Positions 1-19,946 are shown, counted from the first letter of the stretch. The stretch is 32,000 bases of DNA from Candidatus Baldrarchaeota archaeon (GCA_019056805.1 DXJG01000007.1:1-32000), one strand, 5' to 3'. Translations and numbers: made by a program. Notes: a model not told the origin generated them from the sequence alone.

Positions 1-854
1 TATTCTGGAGGAGTAACATCAAAAGCCGGATTACGTATACTTAAGTTTGGAAAGTCTTTTATAAATTCTTTTGGTGCTACTAAGGTTGGATCTCGTTCCT
101 CGATTTCTATTAGTTCTCCTAGCATTGTTTCTTGGCTGAACTTGTAGGTTCCAGCTGTTACGAAAACTCTAACTCTAGCTTCATGTGCAGCTAGTGCTAT
201 AAGAGATGATCCGATTTTGTTTATTACTGCTCCGTTTGCTGCTATTGCTTCTGCCCCTAAAATAACTTTATCGACGTCTTTCATGAAGAATCTAGCTGCT
301 GAATCTACTATTAGAGTTGTAGGTATATTTATTTCATTTAGTTTATTTGCCATTATTCTTCCTTGAAACTCTGGTCTTGTCTCTGTAACAATTACTTTGA
401 TGTTCCTGTCTTTTGCTGCTCTTTCTATTACTTTGAAAACTGTTGTGCTAAACCCGTGTGTAAATATTATGTCTCCATCTTCTATTCTACGTGAAGTTAT
501 CTCGGCTATTTTTTCAATGGATGTTTTGATACGTTCTCTAAATTGTAAAATCTCTTCGTACACTTTTTTCTTAGCTTCCTCAATTTCTACTCCTTCTTCT
601 TCAGCCTTTTTTATTCTATAGAGAGCAAAGCGTATTCCGTTCGCTAACAACATCGTTGTTGGACGAGCCTTAACTAATATCTTACCGGAATTTAGTACCT
701 CATCATAGAGTTCACTTAGAGATCTAACTTTTGAATTTATAATCGCATTGGCTAAAGCTTTTAGAGCTATTATGGTTACTCCGGTGGCTCCATGTATTTT
801 TCTCTTTTTTATTTCCTCTGCTGCCTCAAATATTTCAGGAAATATACTAACCAC
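1..854 (-). CDS. eIF-2B alpha/beta/delta family protein, ribose-1,5-bisphosphate isomerase-like (3' end runs off the window; absent from the ORF track)
   Basis: Manual translation from GTG at 854 (SD GGTGA at 861-865): MVSIFPEIFEAAEEIKKRKIHGATG...ARPTTMLLANG...EDGDIIFTHGFS...VTETRPEFQG...IVDSAARFFMKDVDKVILGAEAIAANGAVINKIGS...TYKF...ELIEIEERDP...RNPAFDVTPPE, which are the hallmark motifs of the IF-2B family. Confidence 0.92.
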   Translation of the reverse strand, partial: MVSIFPEIFEAAEEIKKRKIHGATGVTIIALKALANAIINSKVRSLSELYDEVLNSGKILVKARPTTMLLANGIRFALYRIKKAEEEGVEIEEAKKKVYEEILQFRERIKTSIEKIAEITSRRIEDGDIIFTHGFSTTVFKVIERAAKDRNIKVIVTETRPEFQGRIMANKLNEINIPTTLIVDSAARFFMKDVDKVILGAEAIAANGAVINKIGSSLIALAAHEARVRVFVTAGTYKFSQETMLGELIEIEERDPTLVAPKEFIKDFPNLSIRNPAFDVTPPE

Positions 855-1067: not shown

Positions 1068-2237
1068 ATGGAGTTAAAAAATTTGAAGGTTGAACTTATT
1101 TGGTTTGATAGTATGGGTGCTAAGAGTAGTTGTATCTTTATTGAAACACCAGATGTTCGTATACTTGTAGATCCTGGTGCTTCTGGAATGCAACCAAGCT
1201 ATCCCCTTCCAGATCTTCTTAAACGCTACTATAATTTGAAAGCTCATAAGGAGATTGAGAAAGCAGGGCGAAAAGCAGACATAACGATAATTACTCATTA
1301 CCACTATGATCATCATACTCTGCCTTCAAGTAGAATGCTTGATGCGGATGCTCTCTACAGGAAAAAGAAGATTCTTGTGAAAAATCCTAATATGTATATA
1401 AATAGTTCGCAATGGGAACGGGCAAGATTCTTCTTTAACGAAATGCTTGAAAAATATGGAAAGAAGGAACTTGATAAGAGTCTTGCAGACCCGGGAAACA
1501 TGAGCTTCCCTGATCCAATGGAGGAACTTCCACTTGCCTCTAAAAAGGACTATGGAGACTATAATGCTCGTAAAAAAGAACTTATTGAAAAGGGTAGAAA
1601 GTGGTTTAGAAAGCTTTGTGATATGTGGATTTCGAATCCATGGGTTCCTGAAATTAAGCTTCAAGATGTGGAAGTAGAGTTTGCTGATGGAAAAACTTTC
1701 AAGTTTAATGACACAATTGTAAGATTTACGAATCCTTTGTTTCATGGAGTAGAGTTTGATAGAGTTGGCTGGGTAATAGCTTTCACTGTTGAATACGGTG
1801 GAGAGAAAGTTTTGTTTTCCTCTGATTTACAAGGTCCTGAGATAGAGGATTATGCTGCATGGATAATAGATGAAAACCCAGATTTCCTAATCCTTGATGG
1901 TCCGCCCACTTATCTTTTCGGATACATGTTGAATCGAATAAATTTGAATAGAGCTGTAGAAAATCTTTGTTGGATAATTTCAGAAACAAAAACTCCTACA
2001 ATAATTTATGATCATCATTTGTTAAGAGATGCAAAATATCGTGAAAGAGTAAGCAAAGTGTATGATGTAGCAAAAAGAGAAGATAAATATGTTTTAACAG
2101 CAGCTGAGTTTTTGGGCGAAGAACCCATGATAATTAAAGCTATTAAATGGAAAGAAAACGAAGAAGAACTCGAAGAATATATAAAAATGGCTCAAAAAGA
2201 AATGGAAAGTTTCATACGAAAAACTAAACAAAAATAA
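1068..2237 (+). CDS. Metallo-beta-lactamase-fold hydrolase (UPF0282-like)
   Basis: 389-aa ORF. N-terminal DSMGAKSSCIFIETPDVRILVDPG, THYHYDHH (HxHxDH) metal motif, FHG, SSD and YDHHLLRD motifs match the archaeal UPF0282 family as I recall it. Confidence 0.8.
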   Translation: MELKNLKVELIWFDSMGAKSSCIFIETPDVRILVDPGASGMQPSYPLPDLLKRYYNLKAHKEIEKAGRKADITIITHYHYDHHTLPSSRMLDADALYRKKKILVKNPNMYINSSQWERARFFFNEMLEKYGKKELDKSLADPGNMSFPDPMEELPLASKKDYGDYNARKKELIEKGRKWFRKLCDMWISNPWVPEIKLQDVEVEFADGKTFKFNDTIVRFTNPLFHGVEFDRVGWVIAFTVEYGGEKVLFSSDLQGPEIEDYAAWIIDENPDFLILDGPPTYLFGYMLNRINLNRAVENLCWIISETKTPTIIYDHHLLRDAKYRERVSKVYDVAKREDKYVLTAAEFLGEEPMIIKAIKWKENEEELEEYIKMAQKEMESFIRKTKQK

Positions 2238-2248: not shown

Positions 2249-5200
2249 TTATTGTTTTGAGGGTTTAACTAGACTTTTTTCCATTGCTGCTCGCTTTCTT
2301 TTGCGCATAATTACTATAGCTACACCGATTATTGCCACAGCAATTATTACGAGGTACATTAATGGTATTTCTCTTGGTGGTGGTGCTTCTTCTCCTGGTT
2401 TACCTATTGTTGGTATCCAGCCAGCCAAGAATTCTGCTAATGAGCTTACTATTGTTTTCTTTTGTTTGCCGGAGTATACTACTACTTCAGGGTCTTCGTA
2501 GACGAAGTATCCGTCCCATTTCGGAAATCCTACGCTTAGGAAGTACATGGTACTTTGGAATGTCCATCCGCCAACGCTTGTTTCAGATTCGTAGTCTGTG
2601 TACGTTGCAACGAAGGTGCTTAGCGGAATTGTGTGAGTTGAAACGTTGCAAACCATGCTTAGGTTTCCGCCCCAGATGTATGTGTCACCCATGTTTACCT
2701 CTGCAAACTTTAATCCACTAGTGTCTAGTGAAATTCTTGATGCTTCTACAATTTCATCTGGGGTTATTGGTGTTCCATCTTCACTTACTACTTCCCAGCT
2801 TCCACTTGTTTCTGCGTAGATGTAATAGTTGAGTGATAAGCTTAGGTTTTCTAAAACGGCTATGCCCGTTGGTAGGTCTAGATCCCAGTTTCCTATATGT
2901 TGGTCTATCTTTATGCGAGCCTCTGTACTATTTGTTGCTGTTGAGTTTTCTACGTAGAAGTGTAGTTTGAAGGATAGTTCTTCAAGTGAAGCGTCTACCG
3001 GGCGTTCTTGGAATGTGCGGAGATCTGTGCCATAAATTTCTTCACCATACCATGCGTAGTAGCTTCTTCCAAACGGGAACATTGTACCATTAATGTCAAG
3101 ATATGAAACACCGAATTCTACGCTTTCGTTTATTGGAAGTGTTAACATTCCGGTTTCATTGTAGATGCCAAAGGCTTCTCCGGGAGTAACGAATATTACA
3201 TTGCCTACAGCTTCAGGTATGAAGTAATGAGTAGCCTCGTCTTCATCCATGATCAGATTGTCATTTGTATCGTTGTAGATAAATATACCTGCGTATTCGT
3301 ATCTAAGATCTACATGGTAGGATTGGAAGGTTTCATTTTCTCCTGTTGAAACCCAGTATGATTGTTGGAAGCCGAACCAGAGCCATGTCCAAGTGACTTC
3401 TTCTTTAACCCAGTCCCAACCTTCTTCTTCAGCCTTTTTGAGGTAGTCTTCCCATGTCATGTTTCTTGCCATTCTTGCAATGTCCCAGTATCCTGATTTA
3501 GGAGCATTTCTCTCGGTGTCCCAGAGAGTTTCATTTATTATGGCCATCGTCTCTGGTGAAACTGGTGTCATGTTTGTGTAGAACCAGTAGTATGTTTCAT
3601 TCCATCTGTTCCAATAGGTATTGGTGGATGTTCCCATCCAAGCATTTACAATTAATTCATCGCCGGGTATTACTGGGTTTGGATCGTACACTATATTAAC
3701 GTCAAGGCCATTTACTGTTTCATTCCAGCCGAATTCTCCAACATATACCCTCTTAACATAGAATTGATCATCTGTTGTACTTAGATCTCCATCTAAGTCT
3801 AGTGCACCAGTTGTAGGATCTATTGTCCACTTTCTGTAACCCCAAAGACCCCATTCAGGGGATCCAACAATTACATCCCAAACTTCGTACCTGTAGGAAA
3901 CATCGCCCCACCGAAGTTCTTCAAGATGCCAAGTCACGGGGTAACCCCAAGAGAGACGAGCTACCTTGATATGCTCAACATATAGATTTGTTGTGTAATT
4001 TACACCATTTACCGTTATATTGTATATTGGGAATTCATATTCGTAAGAGTAGAGGTCATTATAGTATCTTGGCGGTATAGTGTACCACCATTCTGGGTGC
4101 AGAAGCCAGTTGATCGGTATTAGATCGTACCATGCACCTGACACTGTGTAAATACGGTAGTAGTCATACATTAGATTTATTGATCTATACTCGTTTATCC
4201 ATACTGTTGTATTGTAGGTTTCACCGTTCCATGTGAAGGTTTCTGGTCCAGGATATTCATATCCGCCTAGTTCTACGGTCACTATTCCTATAAACTCGTA
4301 GTCTTCTAAGCTTTCCAGATCTATTCTGGAACCGTTAAGCAGATACAAAACATAAGTATTGTTTTCCCAGTCATATTCTGGTTCAGGGATAACTGTGTAA
4401 TATATGGTACCACTTACGTTTACTTCAAAAAAGACAACCCTTAGATGACGGGATACATCTAGGAGTGTTCCATTAAACAGAGTAACATTACCAGATTCAG
4501 TGGTGGAATCGTAGGTGAAATAGTCAACATATAATTTTATTAGGCTTTCTCTATCGTATGATCCCTGGTTTGTCAGATTTCCTATGAATATTGCAAATCC
4601 TATTTCTTCGATATCCCAACAATCTATTCCAGATACCTTCGTGTATAAGCCTTGTCCCTTTGTAATGCTATAGGTCACACCATCTACGATAATGTATCCT
4701 GTCGTAGCACCCTCATAATCGTAATGAATAAGGTACAAGGAACCATTTACTAAGGCGTAATCGTCTTCAGGAACTGCTCCACCCTCGCTCTTTGGCTGCT
4801 GTAGGCACCACCATGAAAGCCATTCGTACTCGTCACTTACACCTTCATATGGAAGCTCTACTCTTTCTTCTCCCACTAAGGTGTAATACCAAGATCTTTT
4901 GAACCATTCGGGTACAATTATGGACTTTCCATTGTATTCCCCGACATAATATGCTGATGGATATTCGATGTAGTATCTTTTACCATTTCTTTCAAAGTAA
5001 TACATGTACATATAGTCGTAGTCATACCTTACGTAAATCTTTGTTCCGTTTTCAAGTAGAATATAGTATTCCTGTGCTATGTAGTCCCAGTCTATCCACC
5101 CCTTTGTAAGGTTAACCCATGTGGTTCCATTGATAACGGTAAAGTAACCACCAAACTCGACTGGTACTCTGCCGATCTTCTCAACGTTTAAACAATAATT

Positions 5201-8200
5201 GTAGTCTGCTAACCATATAATTTCTCCATCTAGAGTAATTATGAAGTAGGCTTCTTCAAAAATACTCCACCATGGCGAACTCATATACGTTGTAATGTTG
5301 TAAGTCTCGCCAGTAGTTTCGTCGTAGATTGTTGCATTATATATGAATGCATGGTATGCTTCATATACGTAAATCTTTGTTCCGTTTTCTAATATGTAGT
5401 AGCGTTTGTATTCGTAGGTTGTTGGATCCCATTCTTCACGTAGCAATCTGTATTCGTATTCGTATCCGTTCCAGAACTTTATTTCTTTTAACGGTAGTTT
5501 TTCGCCGTTTATTAATATGTAGGGCTTACTTAAGATGAGATATTTCTTGCCATTTGATGTTTCTGCATAGTATCTTGTCTCTGGGTTGGGTATGTATACT
5601 TCAACGCTTCCATTATTAATGGTATAGACTTTGCTGTATGCCCAGTCTTCTAAAATATGTTCTCCCCATGGTTCAGTATAATCTGGACCATATGTCCAGT
5701 TAAGCAAGTTAACACTAAAACTGTATCTTTGGTCATTGGCGTATTCGGTGAAACTCATATTCACTTGAATGAGATACTTTCCATCTTCTGTGGCGAAAGC
5801 ACTATAATTGTTTACAATAATATAGGTTTCGTTTACGACTGTGTCTTTGTGATGCCAGTCTAGCCACATATTTATCCATTCACCAGAAGTCTGGTTGAAA
5901 GAGTAGTGTTCCCAATGCCATCCTTCAACTTCTTCCATCGTACCTGTGGTCTCATTCCATATTTCGTACGTACCATACTCGTAGACCTCTTTGTTAGTTT
6001 GATTGTAAACTATTATTTCTGTGGTGTTTTCTCTTAGATTTATTGTTGCAATTATTTCCAAGTTGCTCCATATAGTTTCATTTTCGCTCCAATAGTAATT
6101 CCAACAGTTGAATCTAACTCTTATTCCATCGACATCGGTTACAAGCTGACTGCCACCTTCCATTTCTACTTCAACTATAAACCATTGGCCAGGATTAGTC
6201 GCAAAATACCAAGTTCCAGAAGTTGCTCCTTCTTGATCTCTAATTCTAACATTAATTACTGGTTTCTCTACGGAAAGTTGATGTGCATTTTCATATATCC
6301 ACTCCCAGTCTCTTGGCCATATCCTCCACTGACTACTATATACGTAGTAGTCTATCCATAGGTTTGGCCCAGGATTTCCTATGAACTTCCCTTCAAATTC
6401 TAATATGATTTTATTATCTTCAACGGTTTTTGTGCCGCTTATTAGCTCGTAGAGCCGTAATTCAGAGGGTACCTCCTCGATTTTCCAACCTTCCACATAG
6501 TCAATGTATTGTCCCCATTCATCCTCTTTTAGTGTTTCATTCCAGTATTGGTAGAGCAGATAATAGTTAAAAGTACCGTCTGTATTATTGTAGAAGAGAA
6601 GCAAATTGGGTGAAGCCCAGTCTGTTGTTTCTACCTCATAATATTCTCCTGTTGTTTCGTCCCAGTAAACTCTTGTTACATTTATTTCTTTAGCAATAGT
6701 TACCCATTGCTCCATTAGATATGGTCCAAACACCCACTCCCTTGTTATTATTGTGGCATTTGGATCCCAAACATATGTGTCTAGGGTTTCATTGTATACC
6801 CAGCCTCCATGATATACCCTGTATTCTTCATGCCACCCCGTCACATTAACATAGGTCCTCAAGCTATATGGAAGACGAATTACTATGCTGGCGTTTCTAA
6901 AATCAGCATCAGATATCCCGGTTATGTTTAGTCTTATGATAAATGTTTGGTTGATTCCAACACTACGGATTAATTCATAGTCTGTGTTTAATATTTCTGC
7001 TAGGTACGTACCACCATACATCATGTCAAAGTATACTGCTACTTCGTCCCATGGACCGCCTATGGCGACCTCTTTGTATAAGCTTAGTTCACTGTCCCAA
7101 TAATAGTACGAGGATGTACTAATGTAATTGCTTTCATTGTCAAAGATGTTTAGATAGACATTGTATATTCCTTTTGGAGTTAGGTCGTTAAACTGGCCTG
7201 TTATTACGAAGTTATATTGATCTGGGGTTTCAATTAGGGTTGTTTGACTTTGATTCAATGTAAAGAACTCACCCGTAGTACTGCCGTATGGGTCTGAATA
7301 GTTATAAATAGAGGTCCATGTAGACCAATCATTCGATGAGTAATCGTAGTAAATTGATAGATAGGCGGATATATTTACGGCCCACATATTCCAAGATAGA
7401 TCTATTGTTCCAAGTTCGGTGCCTTCTTCAAATAGGAGTTTGGGAATTGTTATGTTTATCATTACAGGTGCGTTTAATTCAATCCATGTGTCTGGTGTAA
7501 CCAAATACCAGGTTTCGGTTGTTGTGTTGTAGCAGAATATGTCGTAATGTGCTTTGGGGCCAAACTCCCAGCTTATGTCTCGGTATGTCCAGTTCCATCC
7601 CCATGTTTCGTTGTATAGTCTCCACCATACTCTTATCTCGGGTGGTAAATTCATTACTGATGGGTCGACATAAATTGCGTCTTCAGTTTCATAGTATAGT
7701 AGCTCACTGAAGAACGGTATGATATGCAAGGTATACGTTGTATCAGCTAGCCAATTTCCTATGATTATTTTGAATCCTACAAAGTTTAAGCTGGCATTTC
7801 TTGCTCTTTCTATAGCGTCTCTTGCGTCAAAAGGCACTGAGCATTCTGGGGTCCCAAAGTCATATGACTGATAGGGTTCAACAGGGTTAAGTTCATCATT
7901 ATAAAAGTCTATAAGTACTGATTCGATTGTCGCTCCGTTGTCTATGGAGGCATTAAATCCAGTTAAAAATTCAATTGCTCTTAGTTCTGCTATTATTAAG
8001 ATTTCTACAGTACCGCTATCCGCGCTTGTGTTGGAGAATGTTATAAATAGTTCTCCTTCGATGAAAGAAGCATTAAAGAAGGCTAAAACTCCTAATTCCT
8101 CATTGTAGAATATATATACATTTGGCTCTCCTTCTTCTCCTTCTTCTGGTGGTGGATATTCTGCTCCGCCTGCTTCTACTCTAAAGTGGTGCTCTGTGTT

Positions 8201-8701
8201 TTCAGTCCAGTCTCTTATGGTTACCGTAAACTTAACACAAGTTGCTCCAATGTCAGTTGCTCTTACAGCTATTTCTTCACCGTTTATACTTATGGTTGTT
8301 CGATCTGTGCCTATGTTGGTGACTGCATAAGTATCTAAAACGTTAAATGCATCATCACAAAGATGTATACTTAATGAATCAATTATGGCGCCGCCGTCGA
8401 TGCTTAGTGACAGTTCTTGTAGTCCCCTTACACCGTCAAGTGTGACGTAAATTAATAAATCTACAGTTTCACTGTCTTTTGAACTATTTTGAAAAGTGAT
8501 TTCAAGCCCGTTTTCAATTAATGTATAATTGAAATAGTCTAGTGGTTTTCCTTCAGCATAATAGTCTACCATTATTACGGGGCTTTCTCCTTCCTGTTTT
8601 GGTATCATTGCCGAACTTAAGTTAATACTCGAAAGAACTATTAGTACACAAAGTATCACTGAAAAAAGAGGCTTAAAACCTATTTTATTTACCATTTTCA
8701 T
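2249..8701 (-). CDS. Giant secreted, C-terminally membrane-anchored glycoprotein (S-layer/cell-envelope or adhesin-like), 2150 aa
   Basis: N-terminal signal peptide (KIGFKPLFSVILCVLIVLSSINLSSA), SD GGAGG upstream, C-terminal TM (LMYLVIIAVAIIGVAIVIM) followed by RKRKR, about 60 N-x-S/T sequons by manual count, Y/W/E/T-rich beta-type composition, DLDGD Ca-binding-like motif. Confidence 0.85.
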   Translation of the reverse strand: MKMVNKIGFKPLFSVILCVLIVLSSINLSSAMIPKQEGESPVIMVDYYAEGKPLDYFNYTLIENGLEITFQNSSKDSETVDLLIYVTLDGVRGLQELSLSIDGGAIIDSLSIHLCDDAFNVLDTYAVTNIGTDRTTISINGEEIAVRATDIGATCVKFTVTIRDWTENTEHHFRVEAGGAEYPPPEEGEEGEPNVYIFYNEELGVLAFFNASFIEGELFITFSNTSADSGTVEILIIAELRAIEFLTGFNASIDNGATIESVLIDFYNDELNPVEPYQSYDFGTPECSVPFDARDAIERARNASLNFVGFKIIIGNWLADTTYTLHIIPFFSELLYYETEDAIYVDPSVMNLPPEIRVWWRLYNETWGWNWTYRDISWEFGPKAHYDIFCYNTTTETWYLVTPDTWIELNAPVMINITIPKLLFEEGTELGTIDLSWNMWAVNISAYLSIYYDYSSNDWSTWTSIYNYSDPYGSTTGEFFTLNQSQTTLIETPDQYNFVITGQFNDLTPKGIYNVYLNIFDNESNYISTSSYYYWDSELSLYKEVAIGGPWDEVAVYFDMMYGGTYLAEILNTDYELIRSVGINQTFIIRLNITGISDADFRNASIVIRLPYSLRTYVNVTGWHEEYRVYHGGWVYNETLDTYVWDPNATIITREWVFGPYLMEQWVTIAKEINVTRVYWDETTGEYYEVETTDWASPNLLLFYNNTDGTFNYYLLYQYWNETLKEDEWGQYIDYVEGWKIEEVPSELRLYELISGTKTVEDNKIILEFEGKFIGNPGPNLWIDYYVYSSQWRIWPRDWEWIYENAHQLSVEKPVINVRIRDQEGATSGTWYFATNPGQWFIVEVEMEGGSQLVTDVDGIRVRFNCWNYYWSENETIWSNLEIIATINLRENTTEIIVYNQTNKEVYEYGTYEIWNETTGTMEEVEGWHWEHYSFNQTSGEWINMWLDWHHKDTVVNETYIIVNNYSAFATEDGKYLIQVNMSFTEYANDQRYSFSVNLLNWTYGPDYTEPWGEHILEDWAYSKVYTINNGSVEVYIPNPETRYYAETSNGKKYLILSKPYILINGEKLPLKEIKFWNGYEYEYRLLREEWDPTTYEYKRYYILENGTKIYVYEAYHAFIYNATIYDETTGETYNITTYMSSPWWSIFEEAYFIITLDGEIIWLADYNYCLNVEKIGRVPVEFGGYFTVINGTTWVNLTKGWIDWDYIAQEYYILLENGTKIYVRYDYDYMYMYYFERNGKRYYIEYPSAYYVGEYNGKSIIVPEWFKRSWYYTLVGEERVELPYEGVSDEYEWLSWWCLQQPKSEGGAVPEDDYALVNGSLYLIHYDYEGATTGYIIVDGVTYSITKGQGLYTKVSGIDCWDIEEIGFAIFIGNLTNQGSYDRESLIKLYVDYFTYDSTTESGNVTLFNGTLLDVSRHLRVVFFEVNVSGTIYYTVIPEPEYDWENNTYVLYLLNGSRIDLESLEDYEFIGIVTVELGGYEYPGPETFTWNGETYNTTVWINEYRSINLMYDYYRIYTVSGAWYDLIPINWLLHPEWWYTIPPRYYNDLYSYEYEFPIYNITVNGVNYTTNLYVEHIKVARLSWGYPVTWHLEELRWGDVSYRYEVWDVIVGSPEWGLWGYRKWTIDPTTGALDLDGDLSTTDDQFYVKRVYVGEFGWNETVNGLDVNIVYDPNPVIPGDELIVNAWMGTSTNTYWNRWNETYYWFYTNMTPVSPETMAIINETLWDTERNAPKSGYWDIARMARNMTWEDYLKKAEEEGWDWVKEEVTWTWLWFGFQQSYWVSTGENETFQSYHVDLRYEYAGIFIYNDTNDNLIMDEDEATHYFIPEAVGNVIFVTPGEAFGIYNETGMLTLPINESVEFGVSYLDINGTMFPFGRSYYAWYGEEIYGTDLRTFQERPVDASLEELSFKLHFYVENSTATNSTEARIKIDQHIGNWDLDLPTGIAVLENLSLSLNYYIYAETSGSWEVVSEDGTPITPDEIVEASRISLDTSGLKFAEVNMGDTYIWGGNLSMVCNVSTHTIPLSTFVATYTDYESETSVGGWTFQSTMYFLSVGFPKWDGYFVYEDPEVVVYSGKQKKTIVSSLAEFLAGWIPTIGKPGEEAPPPREIPLMYLVIIAVAIIGVAIVIMRKRKRAAMEKSLVKPSKQ
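5030..5389. repeat. Two identical 24-nt copies inside the giant gene (5030-5053 and 5366-5389)
   Basis: TACGTAAATCTTTGTTCCGTTTTC occurs twice and encodes ENGTKIYV on the minus strand. Confidence 0.9.
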
Positions 8702-12772: not shown

Positions 12773-15700
12773 GTGTTTCACCCTGATTTTAACAAGAAGG
12801 CTTCTCCAACAACTAAATTAATATCTATGCTTCTGCTTTTAGCTCTTCTCTTAACCTACTGCTACTATCCAGCGACATTGTTTACGAATACAAACTATCC
12901 GCAAACTACCTCCCTACTAATTTATAGAGACAATGAAACCACTGATAGCTTGACAAAGGTATCTTACGATGACGAAAATTTACAAGAATGGTTAAGTTCA
13001 CTTAGAAGCTTAGAGGTTCCAGCAGGATCTCCAATGGATATTTATCCCGTTAGGGAGAGCATAGCTGTTGATTTATGGCCGGGAATCTATTTTCCGGAGG
13101 ATGTTGAAATTTATAAGCCTCTTATAGAGGATCTTCATGCTCAAGGAATAAAATATATGATTTATAGGAATTTTTACATGGTTACTGATGTAAACTACAC
13201 TTACCTATGTGAGTATTATCCTGGTTTCAATGCATCGAATGCTGGTTTTATAGATTTAGATGGAAACCCGTATATAGTAGATTATGATCCCTACGGTACA
13301 CCAATATTTAGAGCTTCAACAAATAGACCTTATTGGCAAAGTTTTCTCATAAATTCAACGAAATTAGCTATCGATGCTGGTGTAGATGCTGTTGTTTTTG
13401 ATGTTGGATTTGGACATTATCCTCCAAATGAGTTAAATTTTGATCCAGATAGCATTAAAGATTTTAGAGAATACCTAGCAGAAAAATATACTTCAGAAGA
13501 ATTGGCTTCAAAATTTAATATTTCTGACATTTCTACATTCGATTTTGGGCAGTATCTTAGAGATCTAGGATATAATGCTAGTAGTTTAAGGGAAGCTTTA
13601 ACGCAAGGAACATCATTGGGATACTATGCTGATTTGTTATGGTCGGAGTGGTGTGAATTTCATCTTAAAGTTTTGGTGGAGTTTTATAAGAGACTTTATA
13701 CCGAGGTAAAAGAATATGCTCAAAGTAAAGGACGAGATTTCTATGTTTTCTCCAATATTTATCATGGTCTTGATCCCCAGTACAATATACTCTATTTGAT
13801 TAATTATGTGGATGGTATCTATGCAGAAATTTTCTTTGATGATTTACAGTATCCAAATAGAACTCCAGCAACAGTTTATAAGGTAGCTTATAGTTTAGGG
13901 AAACATTATATCCCTATGACTTCTCCATCCAACGATTCGGAACTATATCCATTATATATTGCAGAGCTTTTTGCATGTGGCAGCTGGACGGGTGGAGCAG
14001 GAAACTATACTCCATATTTCCTTTTTGTTAACTCGCATCCTGAACTATTCAGTAAGGAACAGGACGGTGAAATAGGACTTGTTTACTCTTTAGCTTCAAG
14101 TGAAAACTATAGTTCATTTGAGGGTGCCTTTTACCTTCTCTCTGATACCCAGCGTAGTTTTGATGTTATTGTTTTTGGAGATAATAAGTGGTTTAATGAA
14201 AGCTTGACATTAAATGACTTGTTAAAGTATAGAGCAATTTTACTACCTAATACTGGTTATCTTACAGATGAACAAGTTGAATTGCTTCTGAACTATGCTG
14301 AACAAGGTGGTATTCTAATAGGCATTGGAAGTGTTGGAACACGAAATGAAACCGGGGAAATTGTCAACTCAGAGACTCGAACAACGTTTATCAGCCTTTT
14401 TAATGGTAGCATAGTTTCTTATGGAAGTGGAACAGTTATTTCATGGACCAGTGATATAGCTTTACAGTACTTATTGCAGAGAAATACAACACTTTTAGAA
14501 GAATTTGAAAATAGATTAAGTGAAGTGTTTTCTCCCGAAATCATAACAAGCTTTACCCACAATACCACTATATTTCAATACTGGGATCCTGAATCTAATG
14601 CTATGATCTTTCATTTCTTAAATCGTGAATATGACTCCAAAAACGATGTAATAACACCTCAACACGATGTGAGCTTTAAGTTTACTTTAAGACCTGAATT
14701 GGACGGTCTTCCTCTTGAAATAAGATTTTATTCACCGAATGACTATTTCGAAGGAATAGAGTTGACTTACAGCTCAGATCCTAATGGATATGTGGAAGTA
14801 ACAATTCCGAAAGTACATATATGGGGTATTTTGCGTGTGGAAGCTAAGAAAAAAGCAGTACAAGAAGATTTAGTAATTAACAGTCCAACCGTGCTTAAGG
14901 ATCAAGTTATAGTTTTGAACGGTAACCTATTAGTTAACTCAAAGTTGACATTGGAGAATGTTATTTTAAAGATGAATAGTTCCCTTGACAGGGTGTTTCG
15001 AATAGAAGTTTATGAAGGAGGAGAACTTGTTATCAAAGACTCTGTCATTACTGCGTATGATCCAAAGTATCACTATTATGTTAAGGTGAATAAGGGCAGT
15101 CGGTTCTATATGGAGAATAGTGAGTTAAGCCATGCTGGTGTTTGGGGACCTATGTATGCTGGAGGGCTGTGGATAAACACGGATGATGTCATAATCTTAA
15201 ACTGTACAATACATAGTAATTATGACTATGGAATACATGTATATAATGCTTCATACGTCGAGATAATAAACTGTAAAATTTACGGCAACAATATAGGAAT
15301 ATACTTGCTCAATTCATCTTTCGTAACCATCTCTAAATGTAACATTTACGATAATTCAATTGGTATCTACGAAAAGGGAAGCTACTATTCTACAATCAAA
15401 CACAGTCATATCTCAAATAATTTATACTGGGGAATAACAATTTGGGACTCTCTATTCCCATTAATATCTGATAGTACCATTCATGATAGTGTCCATGATG
15501 GAATTATCATTTGGTACTCGTTTTTCGCAAAAATTTACAACTGCAAAGCTTACAGTAATGAAAATGGTTTTAACATACGATACACGCCTTTAGTGACAGT
15601 TTCAAGTAGCGAAGTGTATAACAATGAGGAGGCAGGCTTGTTTTTCTTCCATGTTGAGCTTCTGTATGGTCATCCGTTGGCAATTCTTGATTCTCTTGGC

Positions 15701-17095
15701 ACTATAGTTGCTAACAGTTTTTACAATAACACATATGGCATATACATGTTGGAAAGTGAAAAAACTAAGATTGAAGCTTGCAATATACTTGATAACACGT
15801 GGGGAATATATGTTGAAGGAACTACTCAATGCACTTTCATTTTCCGTTCAAACTTCATTGATAACACCGATCACATTTATGTTGATGAAAAGGCTCAAGG
15901 AAAAATTCAATTTGACAACATAACAATTGGAAACTACTGGGATGACCACAGTGGAGAAGATGCTGATGGTGATGGTATTATTGATACACCTTATACTATT
16001 AACTCGGTAGATAAAGACTATAAGCCGCTAGCTAATCCAGTTACTATCGTAAAAATAGAAGATATATATGGGCCTATGATCACGGACATTCAAGTCGTGA
16101 AAGAAGAGGGAAATGAAAATTACAATTTAACAATATCTGTTAATGTCACTGATGATTCTTGGTTAAGTTGGGTTTTAATGAACGGAACAATACATAATTT
16201 GCCGGGTGGAGAAAACTATCCTTTGATGCGTATAATGGTATATTTCTACGATCCCTTTGCTACTATCTTAGGCTATGATAGGTCAAACTTCAATCTTCTT
16301 CCATCAGAAGGATATCCTCTCAAAACATGTACAGCTTCAACTCAGTTCACTTTTCCTCTTAGCTATAAGCCTCATTTCAAGATTTTTGCTGTGGATACCT
16401 ATGGGAACTGGGCTGAAAATGACTCTACAACTCCTCATATAACTGGTATATTTTGGGATCCAAGTAGTCCTGAATATGATGAAGAGGTAACTGTGTTTGT
16501 TCATGTATTTGATCAAAGCAGGATATCTGAATGTTTACTAAGTTACTTTAATGGAACAGAGTGGAATAACGTTTCAATGATATATAATGAGGAAACAAAT
16601 GCAATGGTTGGAAGCATTCCAAAACAACCATATGGAGTTACAGTAGAATTCAAGGTAATTGTTAAAGATACTATGAACAATATAGCTGTAAGTGCAACTT
16701 ATTCTTACACTGTTAAAGATACTACTCCGCCAATATTGAGAATAATTCAGCCAAGTGGCGGAGAAACAATTTCTAATGATGTTAATGTTACTTGGGAGTC
16801 CTATGATGAAGGTTCGGGGTTAAAAGAATTCAAAATTTATTTAAATGGAACATTAAAAGCTACTTTGCCCCCTACAACATCCTGTTATCTTCTATCTAAC
16901 TTAACACCAGGTTCTTACAATGTTACAGTTGAAGCTGTGGATAATGCTGGCAACCGTGCAACTGCATCAATAGTTTTCAAGTATGTCTCTGAAGAAGGTG
17001 GATTACCTAACTCTCTCATACTCATGGGAGGAACAATAGCCGGTGTTGTAATTATAGTTACAGTGTTTTTAATGAGAAAGAAACTAAAAGATTGA
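12773..17095 (+). CDS. Membrane-anchored multidomain carbohydrate-active protein: GH-like TIM barrel + beta-galactosidase-trimerisation-like domain + right-handed beta-helix (NosD/PbH1) + Ig/FN3 domains
   Basis: N-terminal hydrophobic signal; NRPYWQSFLINSTKLAIDAGVDAVVFD and DGIYAE (TIM barrel); FDVI...KYRAILLPNTGYLTDEQVELLLNYAEQGGILIGIG (GATase-like trimerisation domain); many GIY/NNxxGI repeats; GNYWDD..DADGDGIIDTPY; DTTPP...YNVTVEAVDNAGN (FN3/Ig); C-terminal TM plus RKKLK. Confidence 0.8.
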   Translation: MFHPDFNKKASPTTKLISMLLLLALLLTYCYYPATLFTNTNYPQTTSLLIYRDNETTDSLTKVSYDDENLQEWLSSLRSLEVPAGSPMDIYPVRESIAVDLWPGIYFPEDVEIYKPLIEDLHAQGIKYMIYRNFYMVTDVNYTYLCEYYPGFNASNAGFIDLDGNPYIVDYDPYGTPIFRASTNRPYWQSFLINSTKLAIDAGVDAVVFDVGFGHYPPNELNFDPDSIKDFREYLAEKYTSEELASKFNISDISTFDFGQYLRDLGYNASSLREALTQGTSLGYYADLLWSEWCEFHLKVLVEFYKRLYTEVKEYAQSKGRDFYVFSNIYHGLDPQYNILYLINYVDGIYAEIFFDDLQYPNRTPATVYKVAYSLGKHYIPMTSPSNDSELYPLYIAELFACGSWTGGAGNYTPYFLFVNSHPELFSKEQDGEIGLVYSLASSENYSSFEGAFYLLSDTQRSFDVIVFGDNKWFNESLTLNDLLKYRAILLPNTGYLTDEQVELLLNYAEQGGILIGIGSVGTRNETGEIVNSETRTTFISLFNGSIVSYGSGTVISWTSDIALQYLLQRNTTLLEEFENRLSEVFSPEIITSFTHNTTIFQYWDPESNAMIFHFLNREYDSKNDVITPQHDVSFKFTLRPELDGLPLEIRFYSPNDYFEGIELTYSSDPNGYVEVTIPKVHIWGILRVEAKKKAVQEDLVINSPTVLKDQVIVLNGNLLVNSKLTLENVILKMNSSLDRVFRIEVYEGGELVIKDSVITAYDPKYHYYVKVNKGSRFYMENSELSHAGVWGPMYAGGLWINTDDVIILNCTIHSNYDYGIHVYNASYVEIINCKIYGNNIGIYLLNSSFVTISKCNIYDNSIGIYEKGSYYSTIKHSHISNNLYWGITIWDSLFPLISDSTIHDSVHDGIIIWYSFFAKIYNCKAYSNENGFNIRYTPLVTVSSSEVYNNEEAGLFFFHVELLYGHPLAILDSLGTIVANSFYNNTYGIYMLESEKTKIEACNILDNTWGIYVEGTTQCTFIFRSNFIDNTDHIYVDEKAQGKIQFDNITIGNYWDDHSGEDADGDGIIDTPYTINSVDKDYKPLANPVTIVKIEDIYGPMITDIQVVKEEGNENYNLTISVNVTDDSWLSWVLMNGTIHNLPGGENYPLMRIMVYFYDPFATILGYDRSNFNLLPSEGYPLKTCTASTQFTFPLSYKPHFKIFAVDTYGNWAENDSTTPHITGIFWDPSSPEYDEEVTVFVHVFDQSRISECLLSYFNGTEWNNVSMIYNEETNAMVGSIPKQPYGVTVEFKVIVKDTMNNIAVSATYSYTVKDTTPPILRIIQPSGGETISNDVNVTWESYDEGSGLKEFKIYLNGTLKATLPPTTSCYLLSNLTPGSYNVTVEAVDNAGNRATASIVFKYVSEEGGLPNSLILMGGTIAGVVIIVTVFLMRKKLKD

Positions 17096-17324: not shown

Positions 17325-18551
17325 TTGCAGTTTGGAGCTTTCTTTGGTATTTGGCTGATTTTCTTAATATTTATATTTATGCTAGCTGCTGAAGAAAGTC
17401 AAAGGAGAAAAGAAACTTTTCAGAAAATATATTCATGGTTAAAACAGAAATCTAAAAAGATATATTATGAAAAAGGCGGCTTTTTGAAAAGACCTAGAAT
17501 TATTGCAGAATTGAAACCAGAAATGGAATTGGAACGAGTTGAAGTTACAACATTTACTGTTCACCACGGGTATTATACAGGTACACATTACGCTTCACAT
17601 GCAAGAACTTATCTTAGAATCTTGGGTACGAGTGAGGAAGGTACTTTTGTAAACATCACTATAAGAGATGAAGGTCTTTTTGATAAACTTGCTATAGGGC
17701 TAGGACTTACAAAAGATATAGATTCAGGAGACCCCATATTTGATCAAACACATAGAATTAAAAGTGGAACACCTGAAATCGCCCTTAAACTCCTAAAGGA
17801 TAAACAATTTAGAGATTATGTATCAATGATTCGTGATTTAAGGAAGTTTGAAATTAGAGGAGGAAAACATTTACATTTTATAGTTGAGTGTAATTATGAC
17901 GTTTCATCTGCTGTGAATGCTATTTTAGCTATGGAAAGAACTGCAGAAGTTTTAGCGCCAGAGATTGAAAGAAAACCAGTAAAGGTTGAAAAAGCAAGAC
18001 CCGTAACCCCGAAAGTAGAGCCTCGCAGAGCCGTAAGTTCCGAGGTAACGTTGAAATTGAAGAAAGAGTTTGAAAAATTGTCAATTTCTGTTTCTAAATT
18101 AGAATTTAAACCTTCAGAAGAAAACTTCACTAGGGTGATCATTACACCTTTACTAGGCGAATTCGATTACGTGCAATATGAAATCACTGAAAAATTGAAG
18201 GTAAGAGCTTTGGATAATCTTGAGAAACCTGCAAGTAAAACAATTACGATTCAGATATACCCCAAAGATATGAAAACAACCTCAACTCAAAAACCTACCT
18301 CTATTGAGGAAATCAAGACATTATTTGATATTAGGTGTGAGGATCAAGAAGTTTTAAGAAGAATTTCCGAAGCATACATACTTTTTGAAGTATTAAGCGA
18401 GATTAAAGAATTGTCTAACTTCAATGTAAAACTGCAAGGCCAAACAATGGAAATATACTTAGAATGTGGCTTAAATCCAGAGAATATTAGGAGAGCTTAT
18501 GAAGTAATCAGAGAAGCTGCATGGTGGACAAAATTCTATATACTAATTTAA
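17325..18551 (+). CDS. N-terminally membrane-anchored hypothetical protein, tandem paralogue 1 (two-domain)
   Basis: TTG start with SD GGTGGTG, single N-terminal TM, clear colinear similarity to 18714-19946 (GDPxFD, ECNYD, FDIRCEDQEVL). Confidence 0.85.
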   Translation: MQFGAFFGIWLIFLIFIFMLAAEESQRRKETFQKIYSWLKQKSKKIYYEKGGFLKRPRIIAELKPEMELERVEVTTFTVHHGYYTGTHYASHARTYLRILGTSEEGTFVNITIRDEGLFDKLAIGLGLTKDIDSGDPIFDQTHRIKSGTPEIALKLLKDKQFRDYVSMIRDLRKFEIRGGKHLHFIVECNYDVSSAVNAILAMERTAEVLAPEIERKPVKVEKARPVTPKVEPRRAVSSEVTLKLKKEFEKLSISVSKLEFKPSEENFTRVIITPLLGEFDYVQYEITEKLKVRALDNLEKPASKTITIQIYPKDMKTTSTQKPTSIEEIKTLFDIRCEDQEVLRRISEAYILFEVLSEIKELSNFNVKLQGQTMEIYLECGLNPENIRRAYEVIREAAWWTKFYILI

Positions 18552-19783
18552 ATCTGAACACTTTGTCTTTATTATTAATCTGTTTTAATTCTCCGGCTTT
18601 AATTTCTTTTTAGAAATACATAGAAGCATGAAAATGAAAATACTTAAATAAATGTACTTGATTTTAACTTATGAGTAATTATAGAAAGCTATCTTGAGGG
18701 GGAATAATATAGGTTGTACTCTTTATGGTTTATATGCTTGTGGTTTGCATGTTCAACGTTGGTAATTATATTAGCTATTTGGTTTGAAAAAATAAGAAAA
18801 GCAAGAATAACAGAAATCTTTCAGGAAATTTTCTTTTGGTTAAAAGAGAAATCTGAAAGAATACGTTATGAAAATCATAAAAACCCTAGAATTACAGCTG
18901 AGTTAAAACCAGAATGGCAATTAGATCAGGTTGAAGTTACAACGTTTATTGATAAATATGAACACTATTACGACTACTATATGTTACGTGCATCTGAAAG
19001 ATTTAATCTTAGGATTTTAGGTGTAGGTGAGGGGAAACATTTTGTAAGTCTTGCTATAAAAGATAAAGTCCCTTTTGATAGAAGTGTTTTAGGATCAGGG
19101 TTTGCAGAATATGTAAAATCTGGAGATCCAGTATTTGATCATTGGCATATCATTAGGAGTAAAACACCTCAAGCCGCTCTCAAACTTTTAAAAGACGATA
19201 AATTTAGAAGCTACATCAGTAATATACACAAATTAAGAATTTTCAAAATTGAGGGAGATGGAACTCTAAGTTTTACTGTTGAATGTAACTATGATCCAAT
19301 ATCTGCTAAAAATGCCATTTTGGCTATGAAAAGAGTATTAGAAGTTCTATCACCAAAAACTAAGGAAAAAACTGCCGTTAGTGAAAGGGTTAAACCCGCT
19401 GTTTTAAAAGCTGAACCTCAGAAAATTATAGATCCCGAATTACTTTTAAACTTAAGAAAAGAATTTGAAAAATTATCGACCCATGTTTCTAAGTTAGAGT
19501 TTAAACCCTTGGAGGAAAATTTCTCTAGAGTGATCATTACTCCTTTACTAGGCGAATTCGATTACGTGCAATATGAAATTGCTGAAAAATTGAAAGTAGA
19601 AGCAATAGACGACCTTAAGAAAACTGTAGAAAAACCCATTACAATTGAAATACGTCCTAAAGAAGTAACGTTATCATTAGGTCAAAAAATAGCTTTTATT
19701 GAGGAAATCAAGACATTATTTGATATTAGGTGTGAGGATCAAGAAGTTTTAAGAAGAATTTCCGAAGCATACATACTTTTTGA
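18302..19783 (+). repeat. Exact/near-exact DNA patches shared by paralogues: 87 bp (18302-18388 = 19697-19783) and 50 bp with 1 mismatch (18135-18184 vs 19530-19579)
   Basis: Direct base-by-base comparison. Flanking codons differ at many synonymous and non-synonymous sites. Confidence 0.9.
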
Positions 19784-19946
19784 TTCTTTGAGCAAAATCA
19801 AAGAATTGTCTATCTTCAGCATAAAGTTGCAAGATTCAACGTTGAAAATATGTTTAGAATGTAGTGTCGATCCTGAAAACATCAGAAAAGCTTATGAAGC
19901 AGTTAAAGAAGCTGTCAATCTGGTTAAATTCCACCTATTAATCTAG
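18714..19946 (+). CDS. N-terminally membrane-anchored hypothetical protein, tandem paralogue 2 (two-domain)
   Basis: TTG start with SD GAGGGG, N-terminal TM, colinear with paralogue 1. Confidence 0.85.
   Translation: MYSLWFICLWFACSTLVIILAIWFEKIRKARITEIFQEIFFWLKEKSERIRYENHKNPRITAELKPEWQLDQVEVTTFIDKYEHYYDYYMLRASERFNLRILGVGEGKHFVSLAIKDKVPFDRSVLGSGFAEYVKSGDPVFDHWHIIRSKTPQAALKLLKDDKFRSYISNIHKLRIFKIEGDGTLSFTVECNYDPISAKNAILAMKRVLEVLSPKTKEKTAVSERVKPAVLKAEPQKIIDPELLLNLRKEFEKLSTHVSKLEFKPLEENFSRVIITPLLGEFDYVQYEIAEKLKVEAIDDLKKTVEKPITIEIRPKEVTLSLGQKIAFIEEIKTLFDIRCEDQEVLRRISEAYILFDSLSKIKELSIFSIKLQDSTLKICLECSVDPENIRKAYEAVKEAVNLVKFHLLI

What the first reader, a model, noticed from the sequence alone, without database searches (positions are those of the whole stretch)
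1..854. R15P-isomerase-like protein with both catalytic residues replaced in the direction of eukaryotic eIF2B-alpha
Seen: THGFS at 447-461, GAEAIAANG (GAE at 249-257) and IHGA near the N-terminus. Established: active archaeal ribose-1,5-bisphosphate isomerases use a catalytic Cys (THCxS) and Asp (GAD) and an RGA phosphate-binding motif, whereas the eukaryotic regulatory subunit eIF2B-alpha has THAYS and GAE, is non-catalytic and binds sugar phosphates. Inference: this may be a catalytically dead, sugar-phosphate-sensing subunit, a possible archaeal bridge between the NMP-salvage enzyme and the eIF2B regulatory core.
Basis: partly seen in the sequence, partly recalled or inferred. Interest (0 to 1): 0.6.

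Follow-up and report, generated by a model that had tools for sequence, protein, structure and literature searches.

The report
Cys-less partner of ribose-bisphosphate isomerase
This Asgard archaeon keeps, under strong selection, a copy of the sugar-phosphate isomerase R15Pi that has lost its catalytic cysteine but kept its ligand pocket; copies like it sit beside a normal R15Pi gene in many archaea, so it is probably a non-catalytic partner subunit, a parallel to (but not a shown ancestor of) the eIF2B regulatory subunits.

Summary
Window 3..854 (minus strand) encodes an R15P-isomerase homologue with IHGA, THGFS and GAE in place of RGA, THC-S and GAD. The gene is not truncated in vivo: contig C15 abuts C16 through a 7-nt overlap inside a 43-nt repeat, giving an intact 320-aa protein directly upstream of Prs, a canonical R15Pi and form III RuBisCO. 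dN/dS is 0.05. It belongs to a family (about 95 of 265 sampled clusters) that never has the catalytic Cys yet keeps the sugar-phosphate pocket. In 16 of 20 species-representative loci the family member lies next to a canonical R15Pi gene (15 tandem, with starts and stops abutting or overlapping). Head-to-head versions occur in three other Asgard families. A heterodimer model scores 0.81 against 0.00 for controls, but similar complexes are solved. The pocket matches human eIF2B-alpha's sugar-phosphate contacts at five of seven positions. The 'bridge to eIF2B' idea is not established: eIF2B-delta groups with the family at 99/99 support, but this collapses when active-site columns are removed, and an AU test does not reject delta outside (p 0.29). 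Best reading: a non-catalytic, ligand-binding partner subunit of R15Pi. No paper describing it was found. Other first-stage readers of this scan flagged similar pairs on other DNA.

The parts
1..854 (-). First 284 codons (of 320) of the Cys-less R15Pi paralogue. GTG start at 852-854. The last 36 codons and the stop lie on contig C16 (L002 nt 8-116).
786..797 (-). IHGA: the RGA 1-phosphate motif with Arg22 (PH0208 numbering) replaced by His21.
447..461 (-). THGFS: catalytic Cys135 replaced by Gly134. Phe135 sits where eIF2B-alpha has Tyr130. Ser136 (5-phosphate contact) is kept.
   Evidence: PMC5789824; PMC8187479
249..257 (-). GAE: catalytic and sugar-binding Asp204 replaced by Glu202, equivalent to eIF2B-alpha G196-x-E198.
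   Evidence: PMC8187479
663..665 (-). Arg64 (PH0208 Arg65, 1-phosphate contact), kept.
363..365 (-). Gln164 (PH0208 Gln166, 1-phosphate contact), kept here. It is Glu in 76% of the family.
216..221 (-). Asn212-Lys213 (PH0208 Asn214-Lys215, sugar and 1-phosphate contacts), kept.
141..143 (-). Lys238 (PH0208 Lys240, 5-phosphate contact), kept.
486..488 (-). Arg123 (PH0208 Arg124, AMP-activator site at the hexamer interface), kept. Arg188 (window 291-293) and Lys192 (window 279-281) of the same site are also kept.
   Evidence: PMC5789824
1..25 (-). First 25 nt of a 43-nt exact repeat (gene nt 830-872) shared with the canonical R15Pi gene on C16. The contig break falls inside it.

Best explanation
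The ORF is the larger part of an intact 320-codon gene for a paralogue of ribose-1,5-bisphosphate isomerase (R15Pi). The paralogue cannot perform the known Cys/Asp chemistry but still has a constrained sugar-phosphate pocket. It heads the cluster variant - Prs - canonical R15Pi - form III RuBisCO of a Baldrarchaeia (Asgard) genome. It belongs to a widespread archaeal family of Cys-less second IF-2B genes, found in contigs labelled Bathyarchaeia, Thermoprotei and several Asgard families, that are nearly always encoded beside a canonical R15Pi.

Most likely mechanism: the protein pairs with the catalytic R15Pi through the conserved two-fold C-terminal-domain interface to give a mixed hexamer, as eIF2B beta-delta and alpha2 do. 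It binds a pentose or hexose phosphate or a nucleotide in the former active site without turning it over, and so tunes R15P to RuBP flux into RuBisCO.

Shown: the gene is intact; it is under purifying selection; Cys is absent family-wide; the pocket is conserved; the adjacency and overlap with a canonical gene are conserved.

Inferred: lack of catalysis (from PH0208 mutants), hetero-oligomer formation, a regulatory role and the identity of the ligand.
For: 1. Intact and selected. The join of C15 and C16 gives 320 aa. dN/dS is 0.050 and 0.055 against orthologues at dS 0.42 and 1.08, the same range as the neighbouring canonical R15Pi (0.025-0.057) and Prs (0.065-0.089).
2. Catalytic residues. 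In 95 family rows the Cys position is G 52%, S 36%, A 4%, T 3% and never C; Asp is E 57%, D 33%. All 63 canonical neighbours are R/C/D. PH0208 C135S is inactive (PMC5789824).
3. Pocket kept. S137 97%, K240 98%, K215 96%, R65 91%, N214 80%, AMP-site R124 89%. The Gly/aromatic/Glu/Asn/Lys set equals the eIF2B-alpha F6P contacts (PMC8187479).
4. Context. The same cluster appears in seven contigs at 50-95% identity. In 16 of 20 species-representative loci with a variant, a canonical gene is adjacent; two more are cut by contig ends. In 15 of 15 tandem pairs the variant stop lies -38 to +14 nt from the canonical start. Head-to-head pairs occur in 18 further Asgard genomes.
5. Canonical partners form their own clade (96/92, and 99/96 without pocket columns), so the variants are old paralogues rather than recent copies.
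6. The heterodimer model of the natural pair from L005 scores 0.81, best of 3 controls 0.00. This mark was reached by 58 of 80 solved complexes and 2 of 110 mismatched pairs. Runs agree in at least 99% of contacts and partner pLDDT is at least 86. The interface is symmetric, at residues about 157-190, 213-225 and 259-279 of both chains. Like complexes are solved, so this may show only likeness.
Against: There is no biochemical datum for any family member. The complex model cannot tell a heterodimer from a homodimer, because both proteins resemble solved homodimers. In this lineage Prs lies between the two genes, with a spacer of about 150 nt, so translational coupling is not seen here. Two loci (L034, L040) have a variant with no canonical gene within 6 kb. 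Glu, His and the intact 1-phosphate site could support some other chemistry. One subclade (FRGP/CYGYS/GAD) has a Cys two residues upstream and keeps Asp, and two Asgard types keep Cys, so not all members need be inactive. Monophyly of the family rests largely on active-site columns.
Confidence: 0.5

Rival explanations
1. Neofunctionalised enzyme. The paralogue still catalyses a reaction on a related pentose phosphate of the same pathway (for example ribose-1-phosphate, ribose-5-phosphate or PRPP), using Glu202 and/or His21 or other residues instead of Cys/Asp. It works as its own homo-oligomer.
For: The pocket is strongly conserved, including most 1-phosphate and 5-phosphate contacts. The purifying selection is as strong as for true enzymes. 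It always lies in a pentose-bisphosphate gene cluster. Glu can act as a general base. The CYGYS/GAD subclade has a nearby Cys plus Asp.
Against: The residue at the Cys position varies (G, S, A, T) and the Asp position varies (E, D, I, V) within the family, which is unusual for catalytic residues. PH0208 C135S and D204N are inactive, and C135A loses R15P binding (PMC5789824). No known IF-2B-fold enzyme works without the Cys/Asp pair. The near-obligate adjacency and overlap with a canonical copy suggest a subunit more than a separate pathway step.
Confidence: 0.2
2. First reader's reading. It is an archaeal eIF2B-alpha-like regulatory protein that senses sugar phosphates and acts on aIF2, and it represents the lineage from which the eukaryotic eIF2B regulatory subunits arose.
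For: The organism is an Asgard archaeon. In the best ML tree eIF2B-delta joins the family at 99/99. The family profile scores 5-21 bits higher than the canonical profile on eIF2B beta, human delta and human and yeast alpha, while scoring 65-88 bits lower on R15Pi and MtnA. The pocket residues equal those of eIF2B-alpha (PMC8187479). This genome has no PH0440-type aIF2B.
Against: The delta-plus-variant grouping collapses to a polytomy when 67 active-site residues are dropped. AU does not reject delta outside all prokaryotic rows (p 0.288; p 0.82 on the larger set). By raw score delta is nearest to canonical R15Pi. Delta has His or Ala, not Glu, at the Asp site. The H/G/E type occurs in only one Asgard genus, and its nearest relatives are contigs labelled Bathyarchaeia. 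The context is metabolic with no aIF2 gene nearby. Only delta could be sampled; no alpha or beta sequence was available.
Confidence: 0.12
3. Stand-alone homo-oligomeric metabolite sensor or buffer. It binds R15P, RuBP or a nucleotide but does not contact the canonical isomerase.
For: The pocket and the AMP-site residues are kept. IF-2B proteins generally form homodimers (PMC4787765). In this lineage the gene is separated from the canonical one by Prs.
Against: It does not explain overlapping tandem genes in 15 of 15 pairs, nor why the family is nearly always next to a canonical copy.
Confidence: 0.12
4. Decaying duplicate (pseudogene in the making) with no function.
For: It has lost both catalytic residues.
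Against: dN/dS is 0.05 at dS up to 1.08. The frame is intact. The family is conserved across phyla with an invariant pocket.
Confidence: 0.01

Closest known systems
Ribose-1,5-bisphosphate isomerase (R15Pi, e2b2; TK0185, PH0208; TIGR00511)
   Same: Full-length homology (254-293 bits). Same two-domain IF-2B fold by sequence. Same phosphate, sugar and AMP-site residues except Arg22. Same gene neighbourhood (RuBisCO, Prs; AMP phosphorylase elsewhere in the genome). Full-length orthologues even pass the curated TIGR00511 cut-off (328-351 vs 314.1).
   Different: Catalytic Cys135 is Gly, Asp204 is Glu and Arg22 is His. The family forms a clade apart from the canonical genes and co-exists with them in the same cluster.
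Eukaryotic eIF2B regulatory subunits, especially eIF2B-alpha (sugar-phosphate sensor; PMC8187479, PMC4787765)
   Same: A non-catalytic derivative of an R15Pi-like enzyme. The Cys is replaced by Gly or Ala, followed by an aromatic residue. The Gly-x-Glu, Asn and Lys of the sugar-phosphate pocket are kept. It is predicted to pair through the canonical dimer interface with a paralogue, as beta-delta do.
   Different: It keeps most 1-phosphate contacts, which eIF2B-alpha has lost (PMC5789824). It lacks the counterpart of R132. It is embedded in a metabolic operon, and no gamma or epsilon partner is known. Common descent is not shown.
PH0440-type archaeal aIF2B (NF006210; PDB 1vb5; binds aIF2-alpha according to Dev et al. 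2009, as cited in PMC4787765)
   Same: An archaeal IF-2B protein without the catalytic Cys.
   Different: It scores 123-162 bits against a 339-bit cut-off. The PH0440-like clade (THSYS/GAD, about 275-305 aa) is separate at 100/99 and sits with the Q-type group. That clade keeps Asp.
Enzyme/pseudoenzyme paralogue pairs in general
   Same: An inactive paralogue is retained next to, and co-expressed with, the active enzyme, with the interface conserved.
   Different: No such pair has been described for R15Pi in the papers searched.

Membership tests
R15P isomerase (EC 5.3.1.29, TIGR00511) | Whole-length sequence similarity above the curated cut-off | tested here: met
   The window fragment scores 283.9 against 314.1 because it is truncated. 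The full-length 96% and 88% orthologues score 327.8 and 338.2.
R15P isomerase (EC 5.3.1.29, TIGR00511) | Catalytic Cys (PH0208 Cys135, TK0185 Cys133) | tested here: not met
   Gly134. The position is never Cys in 95 family rows.
R15P isomerase (EC 5.3.1.29, TIGR00511) | Catalytic Asp (Asp204/Asp202) | tested here: not met
   Glu202.
R15P isomerase (EC 5.3.1.29, TIGR00511) | 1-phosphate and 5-phosphate contacts (R22, R65, Q166, K215; S137, K240) | tested here: inconclusive
   Five of six are kept; R22 is His.
R15P isomerase (EC 5.3.1.29, TIGR00511) | Isomerase activity on R15P | not testable with these tools
   Needs an enzyme assay.
PH0440-type aIF2B (NF006210) | Score above the curated cut-off and clade membership | tested here: not met
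   123-141 bits against 339. The clades are separate at 100/99.
PH0440-type aIF2B (NF006210) | Binds aIF2-alpha | not testable with these tools
   Needs a pull-down.
eIF2B regulatory subunits (alpha/beta/delta) | Loss of the catalytic Cys with a retained sugar-phosphate pocket (A/G, Y, G-x-E, N, K) | tested here: met
   G134, F135, G200, E202, N212 and K238 correspond to A129, Y130, G196, E198, N208 and K234 (PMC8187479).
eIF2B regulatory subunits (alpha/beta/delta) | Loss of the 1-phosphate contacts (eIF2B-alpha) | tested here: not met
   R64, Q164 and K213 are kept (PMC5789824).
eIF2B regulatory subunits (alpha/beta/delta) | Specific phylogenetic grouping with the eukaryotic subunits | tested here: inconclusive
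   99/99 with delta, lost without active-site columns, AU p 0.288. Alpha and beta were not sampled.
eIF2B regulatory subunits (alpha/beta/delta) | Partnership with gamma/epsilon (W2 domain) | tested here: inconclusive
   No W2 match, but no control genome matched either.
Cys-less tandem partner family of R15Pi (defined here) | No Cys at the catalytic position; adjacent to a canonical R/C/D gene; higher score on the variant HMM than on the canonical HMM | tested here: met
   (+88 bits).

The most novel reading that the evidence does not exclude
The Cys-less protein and the neighbouring canonical R15Pi form a mixed enzyme/pseudoenzyme hexamer. This heteromeric, metabolite-sensing form, present in Asgard and TACK archaea, would be the surviving intermediate between the homohexameric isomerase and the alpha2(beta-delta)2 regulatory core of eukaryotic eIF2B.
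Probability: 0.12. Interest if true: 0.85.

Novelty: new variant of a known kind. Interest (0 to 1): 0.6.

Why it matters
R15Pi is described as a homohexameric, AMP-activated enzyme. A conserved inactive partner subunit would change how flux through the archaeal pentose-bisphosphate/RuBisCO pathway is thought to be controlled.

It would also give an experimentally tractable prokaryotic analogue of eIF2B's regulatory core. Kuhle et al. (PMC4787765) proposed that this core evolved from an R15Pi-like hexamer. A natural enzyme/pseudoenzyme hexamer would make the step 'lose catalysis, keep ligand sensing, diversify subunits' directly testable.

There is a practical consequence too. Most full-length members tested pass the curated R15Pi equivalog cut-off and are named 'ribose 1,5-bisphosphate isomerase' (for example both genes of Bathyarchaeota BA1). 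Genome-based counts of R15Pi are therefore inflated, and metabolic reconstructions overlook the difference.

Tried and rejected
- W2 (eIF2B-epsilon) and profilin searches of the genome found nothing, but no control genome matched either, so both are uninformative.
- No RNA holder was listed for the stretch, so there is no statement on expression.
- Laying DNA contigs did not bridge the C15/C16 junction. Contigs of X1 and X3 stop about 5 nt past window position 1. The join rests instead on the 7-nt overlap, frame continuity and orthologue identity.
- The first AU test on 99 rows compared against a short-search free tree. I first over-read it as 'delta outside is better'. It shows only non-rejection.
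- The eIF2B-delta slice of P0273 was not the IF-2B domain and was dropped.
- No eukaryotic alpha or beta sequences could be obtained with the tools, so only delta was placed in trees.
- The 'longer' search found no fused form of the variant.
- Alignment A1 was too diverse for the locus scan; A2 was used instead.
- Dev et al. 2009 (PMC2937263) is not held, so its aIF2B grouping is cited only through PMC4787765.
- Structure prediction and fold search of the monomer were not run. They would only have returned R15Pi.
- Pseudogene reading: rejected.

Full report
**1. Observation**

Window 3..854 on the minus strand is an open frame of 284 codons. It starts at GTG 852-854 and runs off the window edge. 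It is an IF-2B family protein (Pfam PF01008, 253 bits). It aligns end to end with the solved ribose-1,5-bisphosphate isomerases PH0208 (254 bits) and TK0185 (242 bits).

In the alignment they replace Arg22, catalytic Cys135 and catalytic Asp204 of PH0208.

**2. The gene is whole and sits in a pathway cluster**

The window begins at the end of contig C15 of a 1.92-Mb, 18-contig genome. The reverse complement of window 1-7 overlaps the first 7 nt of contig C16. C16 then reads on in frame for 36 codons to a double stop. These codons are identical to the C-terminus of the 96%-identical orthologue P0001 and unlike the C-terminus of the canonical paralogue.

The break lies inside a 43-nt exact repeat shared by this gene (nt 830-872) and the canonical R15Pi gene on C16. 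The surrounding DNA is only about 76% identical. That explains why independent assemblies also stop there.

The full gene is therefore 320 codons. Downstream on the same strand come a ribose-phosphate pyrophosphokinase (Prs, the only one in the genome), a canonical R15Pi (RGAG/THCNS/GADA) and a form III RuBisCO.

The genome also has the following:
- an MtnA-like protein;
- a second canonical R15Pi next to a nucleoside phosphorylase;
- an AMP phosphorylase.

**3. Organism**

The canonical R15Pi of this genome shares a 90%-identity cluster with four NCBI MAG proteins labelled Candidatus Baldrarchaeia or Baldrarchaeota. That lineage belongs to Promethearchaeati, i.e. Asgard. The best named locus for the variant itself (88% identity) carries the same label. 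Two tandem Snf7 genes above the Pfam cut-off fit an Asgard genome.

**4. It is a family, not a one-off**

Of the 120 closest database clusters, 15 share the His/Gly(Ala)/Glu state; one of them reads THAYS. Other groups read MRGG/THSYS/GAE or FRGP/CYGYS/GAD.

In a 265-row tree, all Cys-less near relatives (95 rows) form one clade. It is sister to the 63-row canonical clade, which is uniformly R/C/D.

Residue states in the family:

| PH0208 site | Role | State in the 95 variant rows |
|---|---|---|
| Cys135 | catalytic | G 52%, S 36%, A 4%, T 3%, never C |
| Asp204 | catalytic, sugar | E 57%, D 33% |
| Ser137 | 5-phosphate | kept 97% |
| Lys240 | 5-phosphate | kept 98% |
| Lys215 | 1-phosphate, sugar | kept 96% |
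| Arg65 | 1-phosphate | kept 91% |
| Asn214 | sugar | kept 80% |
| Arg124 | AMP site | kept 89% |

Our protein changes only Arg22, Cys135 and Asp204.

dN/dS is 0.050 (dS 0.42) and 0.055 (dS 1.08) against two orthologues. That is the same range as the adjacent canonical R15Pi and Prs. In PH0208, C135S is inactive but still binds R15P, and C135A loses R15P binding while still binding RuBP weakly (PMC5789824).

**5. Neighbourhood**

The order variant - Prs - canonical - RuBisCO, or variant - canonical - Prs - RuBisCO, recurs in contigs whose variant is 95%, 88%, 57%, 54%, 50%, 47% and 48% identical to ours. These cover all three motif types.

In a scan of species-representative genomes, 20 of the best 80 loci carry a Cys-less gene:
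- In 16 of them a canonical gene is adjacent.
- Two are cut by contig ends.
- Two have no neighbour within 6 kb.

In all 15 tandem pairs the variant's stop lies -38 to +14 nt from the canonical gene's extrapolated start. The loci are labelled Bathyarchaeia, Thermoprotei, Desulfurococcales, Thermofilales and Thermoproteales, plus two bacterial MAG labels that are probably mis-binned.

Among 400 Asgard genomes the H/G/E type is confined to this genus, but three other families have head-to-head pairs with a canonical gene:

| Asgard family | Variant motifs | Genomes |
|---|---|---|
| f4 (Atabeyarchaeia-type) | ISTA/THCYS/GAE | 3 |
| f12 | IASA/TLCRS/GGE | 14 |
| f29 | ISAA/THSSS/GAE | 1 |

These partners score 24-29 bits better on the variant HMM than on the canonical HMM. 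Ours scores +88, and canonical genes score -57 to -102.

**6. Hetero-oligomer test**

I modelled the natural pair from contig L005 with family alignments. The score was 0.81, with the best of 3 controls at 0.00. This mark was reached by 58 of 80 solved complexes and 2 of 110 mismatched pairs. The runs agree in at least 99% of contacts, and partner pLDDT is at least 86.

The interface is the symmetric canonical dimer interface. R15Pi homodimers and eIF2B dimers are solved, so this pass may reflect likeness only. It cannot separate a hetero-dimer from a homo-dimer.

**7. Relation to eIF2B**

Human eIF2B-alpha binds fructose-6-phosphate through A129, Y130, G196, E198 and N208 (sugar) and R132 and K234 (phosphate). 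E198K lowers affinity 11-fold (PMC8187479). The equivalents here are G134, F135 (Tyr in 67% of the family), G200, E202, N212, T137 and K238. Five of the seven positions match or are conservative.

Unlike eIF2B-alpha, the 1-phosphate contacts are largely kept (PMC5789824).

Profile scores against PDB chains (single sequences agree):

| PDB target | Variant profile (bits) | Canonical profile (bits) |
|---|---|---|
| PH0208 (R15Pi) | 389 | 477 |
| MtnA (1t5o) | 178 | 247 |
| PH0440 (1vb5) | 181 | 207 |
| human eIF2B-delta | 196 | 184 |
| human eIF2B-alpha | 169 | 163 |
| human eIF2B-beta | 162 | 151 |
| *S. pombe* eIF2B-beta | 159 | 138 |

A careful 61-row tree (LG+C20+F+G4 PMSF) puts four eukaryotic delta sequences with the family at 99/99. 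It places a PH0440-like clade elsewhere at 100/99.

Three controls argue against reading this as ancestry:
- An AU test does not reject delta outside all prokaryotic rows (delta-lnL 9.85, p 0.288).
- After removing 67 active-site and pocket residues, delta falls into a polytomy with variant and canonical R15Pi (98/90 for the 39-row clade). The variant family itself is then no longer resolved.
- By raw score delta is nearest to canonical R15Pi, and it carries His or Ala rather than Glu at the Asp site.

The signal is thus concentrated where convergence after loss of catalysis is expected. Alpha and beta could not be sampled.

**8. Comparison with the known non-catalytic archaeal group**

PH0440-type aIF2B proteins have lost catalytic residues and bind aIF2-alpha (Dev et al. 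2009, as cited in PMC4787765). The present family is not that group. It scores 123-162 bits against a cut-off of 339 for NF006210, and it forms a separate clade. Most full-length members tested do pass the R15Pi equivalog cut-off, so they are annotated as active isomerases.

**9. Literature and earlier notes**

Full-text searches found no description of a Cys-less partner of R15Pi. Other first-stage readers of this scan flagged tandem or head-to-head active/dead IF-2B pairs in other genomes. Those notes are unchecked and were seen after my own locus survey. They agree with it.

**10. Verdict**

The 'dead, ligand-sensing subunit' reading is the best-supported one, with a likely partner identified: the neighbouring canonical R15Pi. 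The 'bridge to eIF2B' remains an attractive but unproven possibility, most simply explained by convergence.

Noticed in passing
window 1-25 and L002 (C16) 1-18; L002 2010-2052: A 43-nt exact repeat is shared by the variant gene and the canonical R15Pi gene (nt 830-872 of each) in a region that is otherwise about 76% identical. It coincides with the contig break. It may reflect gene conversion or extreme constraint on the FDVTPPEYIDLIIT segment.
   Followed up: partly
L019 8001-14390: The contig of the 88% orthologue shows variant - Prs - a 320-aa canonical-like IF-2B - a second Prs with identical divergence statistics - a 333-aa canonical IF-2B - RuBisCO. This is either a real tandem duplication or an assembly repeat.
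   Followed up: no
P0016-P0080 group; L018 6001-6963; L021: The FRGP/CYGYS/GADA subclade has Gly at the catalytic Cys position but a Cys two residues upstream, and it keeps Asp. It might retain activity through a relocated Cys.
   Followed up: no
P0180, P0200, P0207, P0231, P0251: PH0440-like (THSYS/GADS) proteins of 441-450 aa carry an N-terminal extension of about 140 aa. Haloferax HVO_1934 is described as a NUDIX/eIF-2B fusion (PMC8576121), so these may be the same architecture.
   Followed up: no
L003 (C9:604663-608502) 571-2403: A second canonical R15Pi (RGAT/THCNS/GADT) lies divergently next to a purine/uridine-type nucleoside phosphorylase. This suggests a nucleoside-fed branch separate from the RuBisCO cluster.
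   Followed up: no
L039, L041: Two contigs carrying the MRGG-type variant/canonical pair are labelled as bacterial MAGs (Acidiferrales, Methylomirabilota). This is probably mis-binning, or else lateral transfer.
   Followed up: no
P0009 and P0031 (Bathyarchaeota BA1, LIHJ01000032.1); Most full-length Cys-less members tested pass the TIGR00511 equivalog cut-off, and both BA1 genes are named 'Ribose 1,5-bisphosphate isomerase'. This is a systematic annotation error.
   Followed up: yes
window 2249-8701 (-), 12773-17095 (+), 17325-19946 (+): There is a 2150-aa protein rich in N-x-S/T sequons with a C-terminal membrane anchor, a 1440-aa beta-helix/NosD protein, and two adjacent ORFs of about 410 aa without any Pfam match.
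   Followed up: no
window 1068-2237 (+): A metallo-beta-lactamase-fold gene is divergent from the variant gene. The pairing is conserved in the 88-95% relatives (L005, L019) but not in more distant ones.
   Followed up: partly
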